Assembly: GCA_015062495.1 (NCBI GenBank)
Contig: SUUN01000001.1
Coordinates: forward strand, 19,881-83,880
Source: Alphaproteobacteria bacterium
Lineage (GTDB): Bacteria; Pseudomonadota; Alphaproteobacteria; Rs-D84
Direction of reading: 5' to 3'
Length of the DNA: 64,000 bases
Both the position numbers and the translations under genes were made by a program. Position 1 is the stretch's first letter, and each line of letters starts with the position of its first letter. The notes under the pieces were generated by a model. That model was given only the letters and a program-made list of their open reading frames with translations. It searched no databases and was not told where the DNA came from. Below are positions 21,238 through 34,855 of this stretch, piece by piece.

Positions 21238-21338
21238 TAAGTAAGTATAATTTATAAAAAGCCCCAGTGCAATTACTTTGCTAAATAAATGTTTAGCAAA
21301 GTAAATACGGAATAAAAAATCCCCCAAACGGGGGATTT

Positions 21339-25795: not shown

Positions 25796-26092
25796 ATGAC
25801 GCCAAAGCAAGAACTGATTAAATCAACAGAAGAATTGATAAAAAAATCGCAGGACAGTGAACGTGTGTCCCGGGTGGTTGGATATGGTGGTGTTGCAATT
25901 GGTGGTGCATGTATGTTGGCTGCAATTGCGATGGCAATTCGGGAAAATTATGATTGGACAGTAATTAATGGTTTGGTTGGGGCGTTGAACCTGTATCTGG
26001 GGGGCGCAAATATTCAGCGTGCCAAGACGTGCCGTGGTAATATTCAAAAACTGATTAAGTCAAAGCAGGAATTGGAAAAAATTAAATGGTAG
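25796..26092 (+). CDS. Small membrane protein (2 TM)
   Basis: Two hydrophobic Gly-rich helices; stop codon overlaps the start of the next radical SAM gene. Confidence 0.75.
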   Translation: MTPKQELIKSTEELIKKSQDSERVSRVVGYGGVAIGGACMLAAIAMAIRENYDWTVINGLVGALNLYLGGANIQRAKTCRGNIQKLIKSKQELEKIKW

Positions 26093-27117
26093 ATTCTTAT
26101 TCCAAGCGTATATCAGATATTATATATGATACGAAAAATTACGAGATTGAGGTACTGTTTTATTTAACCCAGCATTGTAATTTGGGGTGTCGTGGGTGTT
26201 ATATGCGTTCGTCGCCAAATGCACCCCGGAACGTGTTGCCGTATGATGATTTGGATTTTTATTTGAATCAATTTGATAATGTTCCAAATTTTACAAATAT
26301 GGTTACTTTTTCGGGCGGGGAAATTTTTACCGCGCCAATAAACTATGTGCGGACGTGTGCGAATATGGTTCTGGACCGTGGGTGGGGATTGCAGTTAAAG
26401 ACAAATGGTGCATGGGTTATGGATACACAAAAATGCGCCGATGTTATGAATATGTTGCAAAATTTGCAACCTGGGCGCGGAATGGTGGCCGACGAAAAAC
26501 AAATCCATGATTTCTTGCGCCGATATCCAAAATGGCTGTTGCGGGTTTGTGGTCGGTGGTTGTTGATGCGGAAAATGCCCACCACGTCAATGTTAAGTAT
26601 GGCGGTGTCTGTGGATGATAAATTGCACCCCGTCCAATCGGCGGATTGGTTTGTGAAAATTGCTGATCTGATTACAAACGACAAGAAATTGCGCAACAGG
26701 GTGAATTTAAAGACGTTCACAGTTGCAGATTCTGTGCCATTACTGGAATCACGTGTATTGAATAATCCAGATTTGAATGTGCAAAATTTTCAAAAAATGC
26801 CGGGTAAATGGGCCGCAAAATACAAGATAAATGGTGCGACGGTCGAATCGTATGTGGGGGATTTCGTGGATGTTGGTAATGTGCCAATGGAAAAAAAGTT
26901 GACCGAAATTGTTGTGCCACCATTGGGCGGGTCGCGTGGGCGTGTTGTTTATTGCTTTTACCCCGATGGTACGGTTGGGTTTGATTGTAATTATCTGGAA
27001 TCGGTTGGACGCGTTCCGTTCAAGACAGATACAGGAACATATAAATCATTTGCGCAAATTCAACATGATATACATGAAAAATTGGTTTCTGATTATGCAC
27101 GTGTAATTCAAAAATAA
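26086..27117 (+). CDS. Radical SAM protein (paralog of 14323-15492)
   Basis: CNLGCRGC, FSGGE, KTNG and VSVDD motifs. Confidence 0.85.
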   Translation: MVDSYSKRISDIIYDTKNYEIEVLFYLTQHCNLGCRGCYMRSSPNAPRNVLPYDDLDFYLNQFDNVPNFTNMVTFSGGEIFTAPINYVRTCANMVLDRGWGLQLKTNGAWVMDTQKCADVMNMLQNLQPGRGMVADEKQIHDFLRRYPKWLLRVCGRWLLMRKMPTTSMLSMAVSVDDKLHPVQSADWFVKIADLITNDKKLRNRVNLKTFTVADSVPLLESRVLNNPDLNVQNFQKMPGKWAAKYKINGATVESYVGDFVDVGNVPMEKKLTEIVVPPLGGSRGRVVYCFYPDGTVGFDCNYLESVGRVPFKTDTGTYKSFAQIQHDIHEKLVSDYARVIQK

Positions 27118-27150: not shown

Positions 27151-27609
27151 TTAGAACGGTATGTCGTCACCAATGTCAGCCACAGAAATTTCTTCGCGTG
27201 GGGCAGATGCCGGGGTGGCGGATGCCGCATATTCAGAACCCGCGCCGTCCATAGATTTTGCACCGCTTAAAATAACCATCTGGCCGCCAAATGGGTTCAA
27301 GACAACTTCGGTTGTATAAACGTCTGCGCCGGATTGGTTTTGCCATTTGCGTGTGCGCAGAGAGCCTTCAAGATACAGTTTTGTGCCTTTCTGCAACATG
27401 CGTTCGGCAACCTCGACCAAATTGGGGTTAAAGATTACAACGCGATGCCATTCGGTTTGTTCTTTTTGTTCGCCGGTTGCGCGGTCGCGCCAACGATCAG
27501 ATGTCGCCAGGGAAAAACTGACCACCTTTTGACCGCTGCCCATGGTGCGAACCTGGGGTTCTTGGCCGATGTTTCCAACCAGTATGACTTTATTAATGCT
27601 TCCTGCCAT
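27151..27609 (-). CDS. ssb: Single-stranded DNA-binding protein
   Basis: [19 protein letters not shown] and C-terminal DDIPF. Confidence 0.98.
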
Positions 27610-27741
27610 GTCACTTTCCTTTTAGTTTTTATTCATATGTTTGATTTGAGCAATTATAACCCTAAAAAGCAAGTCTTTTTTATATAGGACAAGAATGTCA
27701 AGAATACACACGTAAGCCAAATAAAAACAAGGAGATATAAA

Positions 27742-28383
27742 ATGATTTACGGCTATATACGTGTGTCAACAGACCATCAAACAACAGAAAACCAGCGTTT
27801 CGAAATCAAGCGTTTTTGCGAAAAACAAGATCTGGTCATAGATTGCTGGATAGAAGAGACGATTTCATCAACCAAGGATTTGAGCAAGCGAAAATTGGGA
27901 CGATTGCTGCGCCGGATTCAAAAAGATGACCTGATTATTGCGTCTGAATTGTCGCGATTGGGGCGTAATTTATTGCAAGTAATGAGTATTTTGCATCATT
28001 GTATGGATGTTGGGGCAAAAATCTGGACGATTAAGGATAATTACAGGCTGGGGGCTGATATTACGTCCAAAGTGTTGGCGTTTGCGTTCGGGTTGTCTGC
28101 GGAAATTGAACGAAATCTGATTTCGCAACGAACCAAAGAAGCGATTGCGCGTGTCAGGGCCGAAGGAAAACGTGTGGGACGGCCGCTGGGCAGTCGCAAT
28201 ACATATAAATTAGAGGGGCGCGAAAGATACATATCGCAAAAATTAGGTGATGGGCGTTCACGGTATGAAATCGCACGACGTCTGCGGGTGCATCGTGATA
28301 CATTGGCCCGGTTTATCGAAGACCGAGAAATTCAGCCAGAATGTAGTGTCGAACAAAACCAAACGCCGGTCTTAAAACTGTAA
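27742..28383 (+). CDS. mpi: Serine recombinase of the Mpi (master DNA invertase) family
   Basis: MIYGYIRVSTDHQTTENQRFEI, SELSRLGRNL, WTIKDNYRLG.DI.SKVLAFAFGLSAEIERNLISQRTKEA match the Bacteroides Mpi pattern closely. C-terminal HTH. Confidence 0.85.
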   Translation: MIYGYIRVSTDHQTTENQRFEIKRFCEKQDLVIDCWIEETISSTKDLSKRKLGRLLRRIQKDDLIIASELSRLGRNLLQVMSILHHCMDVGAKIWTIKDNYRLGADITSKVLAFAFGLSAEIERNLISQRTKEAIARVRAEGKRVGRPLGSRNTYKLEGRERYISQKLGDGRSRYEIARRLRVHRDTLARFIEDREIQPECSVEQNQTPVLKL

Positions 28384-30213
28384 TTTGGTTTTTGCCAGGA
28401 CGTAAATTTCATCTGTGCCAAATGGATTATCAACAAATCCAGCGGTCATGAATTTATATGATGCAGATATCTCGACAGATGGGCGGGTTGCCATGTCAAT
28501 AGTATGGTTTGCGAATGTGTATTCGCCATTAACGCGACGACCAGTTGGTGTGCGCAGGTACATGTTGCCGCCAATGATTGTGTCGGGTGTGCCAATAGTG
28601 AATGTCCAATTATTATGTTTTACACCCATGGTAATAGAACCGGTCATAATGTCTGAAAAGCCATTAATCATAGATTCTGTGGATGCGGTTGGGTTCATTG
28701 TGCCAATTGTTGTGCGACCAAATAATGTTGTGTTGCCCAATTGGACTTCATTGTTTAACCCAATAAAAGTAATTGTATTTTGTGAATCTGTGGCCAGGAA
28801 TCCATCACTGCTTAATAATTCGCTGTTTTTAAAGCCAAATTCGATGTTGCCAAAATGCATACGTGTTTCGTTGTTGTCGCGCAGACGTTCAAAACCAATA
28901 CCGCGATTCTTGATTTCGATATTATCGTTCAGGTTTGTGTTAAATGCGCGACCATAGCTGTCAACAAATGCGAATTTAATATTTTCTGATTTTACATTGT
29001 GTGCAATCGTGCCCGACATGCGTGCGGTCTGTAATGGTACGGTTGTGCCATTGGCCAAAGGTACTAGTTCTGCGCCAACTGGGCGGGTTGCGCGTTCCAG
29101 GTCCAACATGCCGTGTCCATATACATTATCAACGCCCACTGCGCCAATATCGCGCGCGGTTTCGAACAATAATGCGGTAATTTGATTGGATTTTAGGTAT
29201 GGAAAGGCTTCGCGAATGACGGAAATTGCGGCGGATACGATTGGGGCTGCAAAACTGGTGCCGTCGATGATTTCGTCTGATGCGGGGGCGTTAATATTAC
29301 TGCCGGGGGCGGTAATACAATAGTTTTTTGTTATTCCACATTGATTGCTGTAATATGCCAATTCGCCGGTTTCGCTGTCCCAGGCAACAACATTTACAAA
29401 GTGACCGTTCAGTTCAGGTACGTGCAGCGGTAATGCCGACATGGCACTGGATTGGCTGTTGCCATCGTTGCCAGCCGCCCAAACAAATATAGCGTCGTTT
29501 TTTTTGGTTGCGTCTGTTAATGCGCCAATAAAGTTTCGGTCTGTTAATTGTTCCATGTGATAGCGGGAATAAACCTGGTTGGCAAAGATGTCCATAGACC
29601 AACTGAAATTATAAATGTTCGCGCCGTCCGATGTGGCGGTTCGGATTGTATTGCCAATTTTATTAAATGAATCAAAGTCGCGGTGTGAACGCGCAACGGT
29701 GTAAATGTTTACGTCTGCATCAGGGGCAATTGTTCCACCCGCCAGGGCCGCGACATTTGCGCCGTGTGATGTGGTGTTGTCTGAATCAAATACCGCAACA
29801 TATGAATTTTTACCTGTGTATCCACGGGCCAATGAATATGCAACACGAATGTCGTTATATTGACTGGCGTTATTATTGTAGTTCGTTGTATTAAATATAG
29901 ATGCCAGGTGAACAGAATCTACGTCGCCACCAACCATTGTATAGGTTGGCAGGGTGGGGCGGGATGTGCCGTCAGAACCGCTGTCGGATGAAGACGCGCC
30001 AAATAATGCGATTGCACCACCAATCAATGCCGCAGCCCCCGATGCAACGCCGACGGTTGTTGCAAATGAAAAACCGTCGCCAGCCAAATCGGATGCGCAT
30101 TTGTCTGGGTTATAACGGCGATACATTGCGTTGTCGCAATTGTTGGCCACGGCCGGTGCGCAACACAGTGCGGCCGATAAAAAGGCAACAAATATATTCT
30201 TGTACGTCGTCAT
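28372..30213 (-). CDS. S8 (subtilisin-like) serine peptidase with C-terminal beta-rich region (autotransporter-like)
   Basis: Catalytic triad VAVFD, HGANVA, GTSFAAP; oxyanion AAGND; terminal Phe (TKLQF). Start MTTYKN at 30213. Confidence 0.9.
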   Translation of the reverse strand: MTTYKNIFVAFLSAALCCAPAVANNCDNAMYRRYNPDKCASDLAGDGFSFATTVGVASGAAALIGGAIALFGASSSDSGSDGTSRPTLPTYTMVGGDVDSVHLASIFNTTNYNNNASQYNDIRVAYSLARGYTGKNSYVAVFDSDNTTSHGANVAALAGGTIAPDADVNIYTVARSHRDFDSFNKIGNTIRTATSDGANIYNFSWSMDIFANQVYSRYHMEQLTDRNFIGALTDATKKNDAIFVWAAGNDGNSQSSAMSALPLHVPELNGHFVNVVAWDSETGELAYYSNQCGITKNYCITAPGSNINAPASDEIIDGTSFAAPIVSAAISVIREAFPYLKSNQITALLFETARDIGAVGVDNVYGHGMLDLERATRPVGAELVPLANGTTVPLQTARMSGTIAHNVKSENIKFAFVDSYGRAFNTNLNDNIEIKNRGIGFERLRDNNETRMHFGNIEFGFKNSELLSSDGFLATDSQNTITFIGLNNEVQLGNTTLFGRTTIGTMNPTASTESMINGFSDIMTGSITMGVKHNNWTFTIGTPDTIIGGNMYLRTPTGRRVNGEYTFANHTIDMATRPSVEISASYKFMTAGFVDNPFGTDEIYVLAKTKLQF

Positions 30214-30364
30214 GTTTTTCCTTTTGTTCCCGTGTGGACAACCCACACACTATTAATATAGTACAAAGCCTTTGTTTGTCAATGCGAAATGCGGTTTTTT
30301 TCTTATGCGGGATGATGATGATTTTTTTATATTTTTACTTGATTTTTTGATTGGTTTTGGTTAT

Positions 30365-34777: not shown

Positions 34778-34855
34778 ATTTTATTTTTTTACTTAAATAA
34801 ACTTTTATTTATCTAAGTAATTGAATTTATAACAACTATAGCGTATAATTGTTTT

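What the first reader, a model, noticed from the sequence alone, without database searches (positions are those of the whole stretch)
27742..28383. Solo Bacteroides-type Mpi DNA invertase in an alphaproteobacterium
Seen: a serine recombinase carrying the Mpi-like signature (QRFEI, WIEETIS, WTIKDNYRLG, SKVLAFAFGLSAEIERNLISQRTKEA). It lies between ssb and an S8 protease with no adjacent transposon or invertible segment. Established: B. fragilis Mpi acts in trans to flip many promoters of capsule and surface loci. Inference: horizontal acquisition from gut Bacteroidales, possibly providing genome-wide phase variation of the many surface genes alongside the leader RNAs. No paired Mpi-type core repeats were found in this window.
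Basis: partly seen in the sequence, partly recalled or inferred. Interest (0 to 1): 0.66.

Follow-up and report, generated by a model that had tools for sequence, protein, structure and literature searches.

The report
Master DNA-flipping enzyme of Enterousia
This gene encodes an intact relative of the Bacteroides "master invertase" Mpi, the only enzyme of its class in this tiny-genome gut alphaproteobacterium. It most likely flips six very short (about 85-base) promoter cassettes elsewhere in the genome to switch secreted surface-protein genes on and off, a known kind of switch in a lineage where it has not been described.

Summary
Window 27742-28383 (+) is an intact 213-aa serine recombinase that passes NCBI's curated Mpi-family model (304.7 bits against a cut-off of 272). 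It is the only serine recombinase in the 0.9-Mb genome. It lies between ssb and an S8 protease, with no transposon and no target-type repeat pair in the window.

- **Recent transfer from Bacteroidales: not supported.** The gene has the genome's own GC content. It sits in conserved synteny across the genus and is much better conserved than its neighbour (80-87% against 52-56%). Its clade does nest in a radiation dominated by Bacteroidota, but the donor is unresolved.
- **Genome-wide phase variation: well supported, though indirectly.** The genome holds six inverted pairs of a 32-bp palindromic site (core AAACGGTGGTTT). Each pair brackets a promoter cassette directly in front of cysteine-rich secreted-protein genes.
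- **Flipping is seen in nature.** Two of these loci occur flipped in other public runs. A congener's locus occurs in both orientations, with breakpoints inside the 12-bp core.
- **The window's leader RNAs are not targets.**

That Mpi itself does the flipping is inferred, not shown.

This is a new member of a known kind of system. Its unusual feature is the very short cassette length, quantised at 84-85 bp.

The parts
27742..28383 (+). mpi-family serine recombinase gene (213 aa, stop codon included)
   Evidence: ORF and translation. NCBIfam NF009949 scores 304.7 bits against a cut-off of 272. It is the only Resolvase-domain gene in the genome.
27745..28170 (+). N-terminal catalytic (resolvase) domain, residues 2-143, with the Ser9 nucleophile in YIRVSTD and the SRLGR motif
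   Evidence: Pfam PF00239 E=2e-31. In the alignment to Mu Gin invertase (4m6f/3uj3), Ser9 falls on Gin's catalytic serine position; 3uj3 carries Ala there.
28264..28332 (+). C-terminal helix-turn-helix DNA-binding region (about residues 175-197)
   Evidence: Weak matches to the NinH (E=0.0016) and excisionase-type HTH (E=0.0016) models on residues 175-197. The column pattern L..HR.T is conserved across Mpi-family proteins.
27610..27741 (.). 132-bp divergent intergenic region between ssb and mpi. It must hold the mpi promoter and contains the AAGGAG ribosome-binding site at 27731-27736.
   Evidence: Sequence. The consensus scan found no convincing + strand promoter, so the promoter is unassigned.
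27789..27800 (-). AAACGCTGGTTT, one mismatch from the 12-nt target core, inside the mpi gene. It encodes the conserved ENQRFE motif and is probably coincidental.
   Evidence: It has no partner site.
27151..27609 (-). ssb, upstream neighbour (context only, not part of the system)
   Evidence: Pfam SSB E=6e-33.
28372..30246 (-). S8 subtilase gene, convergent neighbour whose 3' end overlaps that of mpi by 12 nt (context; a conserved syntenic partner)
   Evidence: Pfam Peptidase_S8 E=1e-26. Synteny in 8 of 12 same-genus loci.

Best explanation
The gene encodes the orthologous, vertically inherited 'master' DNA invertase of this genus of reduced-genome gut alphaproteobacteria. Earlier notes of this scan name the genus Candidatus Enterousia, order Rs-D84; my own data show only 'Alphaproteobacteria bacterium' MAGs.

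**Shown here**
- It is an intact small serine recombinase of the Mpi family.
- It is the only serine recombinase in the genome.
- It is not next to any target site.
- The genome carries six dispersed inverted pairs of a 32-bp palindromic site, TGCCGAATCY-AAACGGTGGTTT-RGATTCGGCA. Five pairs are spaced 85 bp start to start and one is spaced 109 bp.
- Each pair encloses a sigma70-type promoter and abuts the ribosome-binding site of a cysteine-rich secreted-protein gene.
- Such cassettes do invert in nature, with the crossover inside the 12-bp core.

**Inferred**
- Mpi dimers bind the two palindromic sites, synapse as a tetramer, cut at the asymmetric centre (GT or GGTG) and rotate subunits. This reverses the cassette, so the promoter reads into the gene (ON) or away from it (OFF).
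- At the 109-bp locus the promoter would be switched between two divergent paralogous genes.
- Acting in trans on all six loci, the enzyme would give each cell a different combination of secreted or surface proteins.
For: **Family and chemistry**
- NF009949 scores 304.7 bits against a cut-off of 272.
- The Resolvase domain is present, and Ser9 aligns with the catalytic serine position of Gin.
- The protein is separated from ordinary resolvase-type outgroups with support 100.

**Sole candidate of its class**
- There is one Resolvase-domain gene in 899,957 bp.

**Targets exist**
- My own inverted-repeat scan and an exact pattern search find six pairs in G000 and none for the reversed control pattern.
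- The pairs are at C1:127359/127444, C1:252419/252504, C1:430188/430273, C2:77544/77653, C2:347412/347497 and C3:3894/3979.
- The inner segments carry TTGACT-N17-CAAAAT or TTGGCA-N17-TAAAAT promoters. The flanking genes encode signal-peptide, cysteine-rich proteins.

**Inversion observed**
- In run X19 one 2339-bp contig aligns +/-/+ across the C2:77534-77674 locus, with joints inside the repeats.
- In run X20 a contig joins the left flank of the C1:127359 locus to the reverse complement of its right end, sharing exactly the 12-nt core.
- In a congener, contigs L148/L152/L153 and L155/L156/L157 have the same flanks. Their 73-bp inner segment is exactly reverse-complemented between the cores.
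- mpi is present without indels in X19.

**Co-occurrence**
- All 15 of 121 order genomes with exact site pairs belong to this genus. All 15 carry a high-scoring Mpi (E<=1e-90), against 42 of 82 genus genomes overall (Fisher p=1e-5, not corrected for phylogeny).

**Selection**
- Mpi is 80-87% identical across species in which the adjacent S8 protease is 52-56% identical.

**Precedent**
- B. fragilis Mpi is the single global invertase for 7 capsule promoters, and deleting it locks their orientation (PMC12632263; bioRxiv 10.1101/2022.10.31.514637).
- Its repeat consensus ARACGTTCGTN (PMC8375218) matches AAACGGTGGTT at 8 of 10 defined positions.
Against: - No experiment or read-level data link this protein to these sites.
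- XerC, XerD and a 406-aa phage-type integrase are also encoded. All 15 site-bearing genomes have XerC and XerD, so a tyrosine recombinase is not excluded.
- The crossover is located only to within the 12-nt core. That fits a 2-bp serine-type stagger but also a 6-8-bp tyrosine-type overlap.
- In seven metagenomes holding this very strain, the assembled contigs show only the reference orientation. So does another assembly pair, L026/L027. Contigs drop minority forms, however.
- All five single-gene cassettes point away from their gene in this assembly. That pattern is expected for a mostly-OFF system, but it also makes the promoter assignment less secure.
- An 85-bp segment is very short for a serine-recombinase synapse.
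- The co-occurrence statistic is confounded by shared ancestry.
Confidence: 0.75

Rival explanations
1. The cassettes are flipped by a tyrosine recombinase (XerC/XerD or the 406-aa integrase at C1:333235). The Mpi-family protein would do something else, for example resolving replicon dimers or acting on other, unidentified sites.
For: Three intact tyrosine recombinases are encoded. XerC and XerD are present in every site-bearing genome. The sites are long palindromes, superficially like dif or lox. Bacteroides also uses tyrosine recombinases for some promoter inversions (reference list of PMC12632263, Weinacht 2004).
Against: - The palindromic arms run to within 2-4 bp of the centre, leaving no 6-8-bp non-palindromic spacer of the dif or lox type.
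- The half-site end AAACG next to the centre resembles the Bacteroides Mpi repeat (PMC8375218).
- A clear phage-type integrase is missing from two site-bearing genomes, G084 and G107.
- Site pairs are found only in genomes with the high-scoring Mpi orthologue.
- No plasmid, transposon or res-like site lies near the gene to give it a resolvase job.
Confidence: 0.12
2. The gene is a recent horizontal arrival from gut Bacteroidales, a passenger of a mobile element with no integrated role in the host.
For: The family is dominated by Bacteroidota in the genome scan. It is rare in Alphaproteobacteria, occurring in 10 of 301 genomes and 8 of 253 genera. Family members sit on plasmids in several phyla.
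Against: GC and GC3 equal the genome average. No mobile-element genes flank it. The same mpi-S8 (and in two loci ssb) arrangement occurs in many species of the genus. The orthologues form their own clade with support 96. The best Bacteroidales identity is only 53-61%.
Confidence: 0.03
3. Mpi's real or additional targets are the roughly 40 copies of the 30-bp palindrome TACTTCGCTAAATAAAAGTTTAGCGAAGTA. Some of these occur in inverted pairs 165-180 bp apart, which is the size of Bacteroides invertons.
For: Seven such inverted pairs exist. Two of them (C2:13585-13796 and C2:75758-75965) enclose the same insert in opposite orientations. Copies sit about 60 bp upstream of leader elements in the window.
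Against: The arms co-vary to keep pairing while their sequence changes, which is the signature of a hairpin rather than of a protein-recognition site. The 6-bp centre is unlike serine-recombinase sites. No locus with the same flanks was seen in both states. The inserts look like nested-palindrome (REP/MITE-like) elements.
Confidence: 0.1

Closest known systems
Mpi (also called FinA or Ssr2), the master DNA invertase of Bacteroides fragilis, with its invertible capsule and surface-protein promoters
   Same: - The protein belongs to the same curated family (NF009949 above cut-off).
- It is a small serine recombinase encoded away from its targets.
- It would act on several dispersed promoter cassettes bounded by short inverted repeats, placed in front of surface or secreted-product genes.
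- The repeat core is similar next to the centre (ARACG...).
- Most cassettes are OFF in the consensus.
   Different: - Identity to named Bacteroidales family members is only 53-61%.
- The host is an alphaproteobacterium with a genome under 1 Mb.
- Each site is a 32-bp near-perfect palindrome.
- The targets are single genes for cysteine-rich secreted proteins rather than polysaccharide operons.
- Dependence on the enzyme is untested here.
Hin/Gin/Cin/Pin invertases (Fis- and enhancer-dependent serine invertases of Salmonella and of phages Mu, P1 and e14)
   Same: Gin is the closest solved structure (4m6f/3uj3, E=6e-14). The catalytic domain and the active-site serine position are the same. The crossover sites are palindromic with a short asymmetric centre.
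   Different: Those enzymes lie next to or inside the single 1-3-kb segment they invert and need an enhancer and Fis. Here the gene is 29 kb or more from the nearest site, there are several targets, and the 73-bp inner segments leave no room for a separate enhancer.
Tn3 / gamma-delta resolvases
   Same: The fold and chemistry are the same (PDB matches 5cy1 and 1zr2 at E=7e-9 to 4e-7).
   Different: There is no transposase, no res site and no directly repeated sites. In the tree the Mpi family separates from the resolvase-type plasmid proteins used as outgroup with support 100.

Membership tests
Mpi family serine recombinase (NCBIfam NF009949 / PRK13413) | Full-length match to the curated family model above its cut-off | tested here: met
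   304.7 bits against a cut-off of 272, residues 1-198 on model positions 1-199 of 203. The six-frame genome search gives 304.3 bits.
Mpi family serine recombinase (NCBIfam NF009949 / PRK13413) | Small serine recombinase architecture: N-terminal catalytic domain with a serine nucleophile and a C-terminal HTH, about 200 aa | tested here: met
   213 aa. Pfam Resolvase on residues 2-143. Ser9 aligns with Gin's catalytic position. Weak HTH matches on residues 175-197.
Mpi family serine recombinase (NCBIfam NF009949 / PRK13413) | Groups with named Mpi-family proteins rather than with ordinary resolvases in a tree | tested here: met
   The query lies in a clade of 11 orthologues (support 96) inside a 48-row clade (support 98) with Bacteroidales, Capnocytophaga and Treponema members. 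The outgroup resolvases split off with support 100. This was a quick tree, with sampling biased towards Parabacteroides-like proteins.
Mpi-type global phase-variation system | Recombinase encoded away from its targets (acts in trans) | tested here: met
   There is no site pair in the 64-kb window. The nearest site is a solo copy at C1:18450, 29 kb from the gene. The six pairs are on three contigs.
Mpi-type global phase-variation system | Several dispersed promoter-bearing segments bounded by a shared inverted repeat, in front of surface or secreted-product genes | tested here: met
   Six pairs share one 32-bp site, carry sigma70-like promoters inside and have cysteine-rich signal-peptide genes outside.
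Mpi-type global phase-variation system | The segments really invert | tested here: met
   Flipped forms of two G000 loci occur in runs X19 and X20. One congener locus occurs in both states with identical flanks. The evidence comes from comparing samples. Mixed orientation within one population was not resolvable from contigs.
Mpi-type global phase-variation system | Inversion depends on this recombinase | not testable with these tools
   Only indirect support: it is the sole serine recombinase and it co-occurs with the sites. A genetic or heterologous assay is needed.
Mpi-type global phase-variation system | Repeat core like the B. fragilis consensus ARACGTTCGTN | tested here: inconclusive
   AAACGGTGGTT matches 8 of 10 defined positions of the consensus quoted in PMC8375218. 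Both are short palindromes around a 2-bp centre. The resemblance is too short to be decisive.
Hin/Gin-type invertase | Gene adjacent to or within its single invertible segment, with a Fis-bound enhancer | tested here: not met
   There is no inverted repeat around or beside the gene. The targets are distant and multiple.
Tn3-family resolvase | Linked transposase and res site | tested here: not met
   The neighbours are ssb, a radical-SAM-like ORF, rnhB, pgk, an S8 protease and rpsB. There is no transposase.

The most novel reading that the evidence does not exclude
A single Mpi orthologue would be the master switch of the secretome in bacteria with genomes under 1 Mb. It would work on the shortest substrates I know of for a serine invertase: cassettes of 83-85 bp start to start, with rare variants one or two helical turns longer (94-96 and 109 bp). 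That would imply an enhancer-free synapse closed over a DNA loop of about 73 bp, whose length is fixed by helical phasing. The 32-bp palindromic sites would also be portable. The same cassette sits at four loci, and a solo site marks a fifth gene, so the enzyme might also shuffle promoters or drive larger rearrangements between loci.
Probability: 0.45. Interest if true: 0.7.

Novelty: new member of a known kind. Interest (0 to 1): 0.5.

Why it matters
These uncultured alphaproteobacteria with genomes of about 0.9 Mb are widespread in animal and human guts. The one paper held here that deals with their biology (PMC12306168) says nothing about recombinases or phase variation.

A conserved, trans-acting invertase with several promoter cassettes suggests that a lineage this reduced still invests in stochastic variation of its secreted cysteine-rich proteins. 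That points to pressure from host immunity, phages or partner cells.

The system also extends the Mpi paradigm outside Bacteroidota. Its tightly quantised cassette of about 85 bp is a compact natural DNA switch. It could inform how small a serine-recombinase inversion substrate can be, and it could serve as a minimal genetic toggle.

Tried and rejected
1. **Contigs of the same strain.** I laid Logan contigs from seven metagenomes holding this strain on three loci. No flipped junction appeared. In X2-X4 the assembly graph breaks exactly at the repeats of the C2:77544 locus. The junction pieces there have lower depth (20.5 and 25) than the middle piece (30.2). This hints at a minority form but proves nothing.
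3. **Exact-protein look-up** of the gene behind the C1:430188 cassette. The two assemblies shown have the reference orientation, and similar places are collapsed.
4. **Metagenome scan for this strain's own cassette** found nothing. The second scan, for the generic site pair, gave the informative congener locus.
5. **C2:347412 locus in X19, X20, X8 and X11.** No flipped form was seen, and the picture is tangled by four copies of the same cassette.
6. **Names for 50%-identity cluster representatives.** None carried a name. Named relatives came from plasmid records and the genome scan instead.
7. **B. fragilis Mpi itself was never retrieved.** Coyne 2003 is not held, so the comparison rests on Parabacteroides, Phocaeicola and Prevotella family members and on a consensus quoted second-hand.
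8. **Inverted pair at window 3472/3563** (AAACGGTATTTT). Rejected because it has 2 mismatches and lies in a stretch that reads like coding sequence.
9. **Excluding tyrosine recombinases by distribution.** This failed for XerC and XerD and gave only a weak result for the integrase.

Full report
**What is there.** Window 27742-28383 (+) is an ATG-started, 213-codon ORF preceded by AAGGAG.
- Pfam places a Resolvase catalytic domain on residues 2-143 (E=2e-31).
- NCBI's curated model for the 'master DNA invertase Mpi family' (NF009949) matches residues 1-198 with 304.7 bits, above its cut-off of 272. The next-best families score under 28 bits.
- The nearest solved structure is phage Mu Gin invertase (4m6f/3uj3, E=6e-14), followed by Tn3 and gamma-delta resolvases. 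Ser9 in YIRVSTD falls on the catalytic serine position, which is Ala in the 3uj3 variant.
- The quoted motifs are invariant or nearly so in an alignment with named family members from Parabacteroides, Phocaeicola, Prevotella, Treponema, Lactococcus and Desulforapulum.

**Setting.** The window is C1:19881-83880 of an assembly of 899,957 bp in three contigs, 97.7% complete and 44.7% GC. Close homologues are annotated only as 'Alphaproteobacteria bacterium' MAGs from guts. Earlier notes of this scan call the organism Candidatus Enterousia (order Rs-D84). That fits the published description of gut bacteria with genomes under 1 Mb (PMC12306168), but I did not verify the name myself.
- The gene lies between ssb (divergent) and an S8 subtilase gene (convergent, with a 12-nt overlap of the 3' ends).
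- Further out are a radical-SAM-like ORF, rnhB and pgk on one side and rpsB and tsf on the other.
- No transposase or phage gene is nearby.
- It is the only Resolvase-domain gene in the genome.
- The genome also encodes XerD-like, XerC-like and 406-aa phage-type tyrosine recombinases, plus one decayed copy.

**Was it recently acquired from Bacteroidales?** A recent transfer is contradicted.
- *Composition.* The gene's GC (45.0%) and GC3 (43.9%) equal the genome average.
- *Synteny.* Of the 12 best-scoring loci from same-genus genomes, 8 have mpi next to the S8 gene in the same convergent arrangement, two of them with ssb as well. Mpi is 80-87% identical across these species while S8 is only 52-56% identical. 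Mpi is therefore a conserved core gene under strong constraint.
- *Order-wide spread.* 98 of 121 sampled genomes of the order have a family match, 53 above the cut-off, with 1 to 8 copies per genome. This genome has one.
- *Class-wide spread.* In an even sample of the class the family is rare. It occurs in 10 of 301 genomes and 8 of 253 genera, all with small genomes of 0.9-2.6 Mb.
- *Outside the class.* The family is broad. Named members on plasmid records are 53-61% identical to the query (Prevotella 61%, Lactococcus 59%, Treponema 58%, Parabacteroides 55%, Phocaeicola 53%). A genome scan returned mostly Bacteroidota, with scattered Verrucomicrobiota, Elusimicrobiota, Bacillota, Acidobacteriota and alphaproteobacterial MAGs.
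- *Tree.* In a tree of 103 proteins the query falls in a clade of 11 syntenic orthologues (support 96). The neighbours of this clade are unresolved: a Muribaculaceae protein, a Pseudomonadota MAG, and a second alphaproteobacterial paralogue clade with an Elusimicrobiota protein. All of this lies inside a 48-row clade (support 98) dominated by Bacteroidota.

An old transfer into the lineage from a Bacteroidota-like donor is plausible. The donor is not identified, and the sampling was biased towards relatives of the Parabacteroides protein.

**Targets.** Genome-wide, my inverted-repeat scan and an exact pattern search find six inverted pairs of one site.
- The pairs are at C1:127359/127444, C1:252419/252504, C1:430188/430273, C2:347412/347497 and C3:3894/3979 (all 85 bp start to start) and at C2:77544/77653 (109 bp).
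- A solo site lies at C1:18450, 1.4 kb before the window starts.
- The 13 sites give the consensus TGCCGAATCC-AAACGGTGGTTT-AGATTCGGCA. This is a 32-bp near-perfect palindrome whose only asymmetry is the centre (GGTG, or GT with 15-nt arms). That layout is typical of small serine-recombinase crossover sites.
- Each inner segment carries a sigma70-like promoter. Four near-identical cassettes have TTGACT-N17-CAAAAT or CAGAAT, one has TTGACT-N17-GACAAT, and the 109-bp cassette has TTGGCA-N17-TAAAAT with a TG extension.
- Each outer half-site is followed within 25-40 bp by a GGGGGA-type ribosome-binding site and the start of a gene for a signal-peptide-bearing, cysteine-rich protein.
- In this assembly the five single-gene cassettes all point away from their gene. 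The 109-bp cassette lies between two divergent paralogues and points at the right-hand one.
- None of these genes has room for the roughly 230-nt leader RNA described in other notes. The leaders and the invertons are therefore separate control systems.

**Do the cassettes flip?** Yes.
1. In run X19 a single 2339-bp contig (about 98% identical to this genome) aligns to the C2:77544 locus as + (700-1037), - (1035-1172) and + (1176-1500). The two 'opposite strands' joints fall inside the repeats. In that population the promoter faces the left-hand gene. The same run carries mpi with about 14 substitutions and no indels.
2. In run X20 a 152-bp contig joins the left flank of the C1:127359 locus (up to the base before the core) to the reverse complement of the right end of the cassette. 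Exactly 12 letters, the core, are shared by both sides. This is the ON junction for the gene at C1:126407-127303.
3. A scan of metagenome contigs for the generic site pair returned one locus in two states. L148, L152 and L153 have the 73-bp inner segment in one orientation. L155, L156 and L157 have its exact reverse complement, between identical flanks and identical 12-nt cores (BLAST 100% over 103 bp on the opposite strand). The flanks of these and of the other contigs returned are 70-88% identical to regions of this genome, so they come from congeners.

The bases immediately outside the core swap partners, so the crossover lies within AAACGGTGGTTT. Contigs from seven samples holding this very strain show only the reference state. 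Assemblies drop minority variants, so this is uninformative about switching within a population.

**Linking enzyme and sites.** This step is inferred. The arguments are:
- It is the only serine recombinase, and the sites have serine-type geometry.
- The family precedent is strong. In B. fragilis one global invertase flips seven capsule promoters, and its deletion locks them (PMC12632263; bioRxiv 10.1101/2022.10.31.514637).
- The Bacteroides repeat consensus ARACGTTCGTN (quoted in PMC8375218) matches AAACGGTGGTT at 8 of 10 defined positions.
- Exact site pairs occur in 15 of 121 order genomes. All 15 are in this genus and all carry the high-scoring orthologue (E<=1e-90), against 42 of 82 genus genomes overall. 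The reversed control pattern gave zero hits (Fisher p=1e-5, not corrected for phylogeny).
- The protein is far better conserved than its neighbour, as expected for an enzyme that must keep recognising many sites.

Against this, XerC and XerD are present in all site-bearing genomes. The phage-type integrase is present in all but two. None of them can be excluded without an experiment.

**An unusual feature.** Across the 41 site pairs found in 15 genomes, the start-to-start spacing is 83 (2 pairs), 84 (18), 85 (16), 94 (2), 96 (2) and 109 (1). Most cassettes therefore have one length, and four of the five exceptions are about one helical turn longer. This suggests that the two sites must face the same side of the helix across a very short loop of about 73 bp. 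The Bacteroides invertons I know of are about twice as long (183-186 bp in B. intestinalis, PMC8375218). The 73-bp inner segment is almost filled by the promoter, so a separate enhancer of the Hin/Gin type is unlikely. This reading is an inference.

**Verdict.** The gene is a bona fide, intact member of the Mpi family, vertically maintained in its genus. It is very probably the trans-acting invertase for six (possibly seven) ultra-short promoter invertons that control secreted cysteine-rich proteins. The kind of system is known. Public annotation already labels the homologues in alphaproteobacterial MAGs with the family name. The papers held here do not mention recombinases or inversion for this lineage. 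I rate it a new member of a known kind with a noteworthy variant feature, the quantised 84-85-bp cassette, and of moderate interest.

Noticed in passing
window 21282-21296 and 34797-34811; about 40 copies genome-wide (e.g. C1:467993-468215, C2:13585-13796, C2:75758-75965): A 30-bp palindrome, TACTTCGCTAAATAAAAGTTTAGCGAAGTA, whose arms co-vary between copies. The window copies lie about 60 bp upstream of leader elements. Seven inverted pairs 165-180 bp apart enclose nested-palindrome (REP/MITE-like) inserts, and two loci hold the same insert in opposite orientations. It could be a hairpin element, an insertion target or a second class of switch.
   Followed up: partly
genome C1:18450-18461, 1.43 kb upstream of the window start: A solo Mpi-type site with a full 32-bp palindrome lies 30 bp in front of a cysteine-rich secreted-protein gene (C1:17533-18420, -). 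It has no partner within 140 bp. It may be a remnant of a cassette or a partner for long-range recombination.
   Followed up: partly
related genomes, table (e.g. G075:C2:151-747, G099:C2:12-605, G014:C7:22-615, G073:C4:8-601): Relatives carry up to 8 Mpi paralogues. Many sit within a few hundred bases of a contig end, and several contain stop codons. This suggests that paralogues lie in repeated or invertible cassettes that break assemblies, and that some are decaying.
   Followed up: no
L119 (G040:C8:40905-41003) compared with G000 C1:18611-19657 and C2:347352-349031: In the closest sampled relative, a cassette of the same family points towards its gene (ON). It sits in a different genomic neighbourhood from any G000 locus, joining regions that are on different contigs in G000. 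Inverton loci may coincide with rearrangement breakpoints.
   Followed up: partly
window 26086-27117 (+): A 343-aa ORF has only sub-threshold radical-SAM and 4Fe-4S matches (22 bits against a cut-off of 29.5) but a CxxxCxxC-like motif (CNLGCRGC). It follows a 98-aa membrane-protein ORF (25796-26092). Its function is unknown.
   Followed up: no
L010 1032-1064 and 1146-1178 (C2:77531-77563 and 77645-77677) in runs X2-X4: The assembly graph breaks exactly at the two repeats. The 33-nt junction pieces have lower depth (20.5 and 25 in X4) than the orientation-neutral middle piece (30.2). This is compatible with a minority flipped subpopulation in the same sample but does not prove it.
   Followed up: partly
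window 28372-28383: The mpi and S8-protease reading frames converge and overlap by 12 nt. No terminator-like hairpin lies between them.
   Followed up: no
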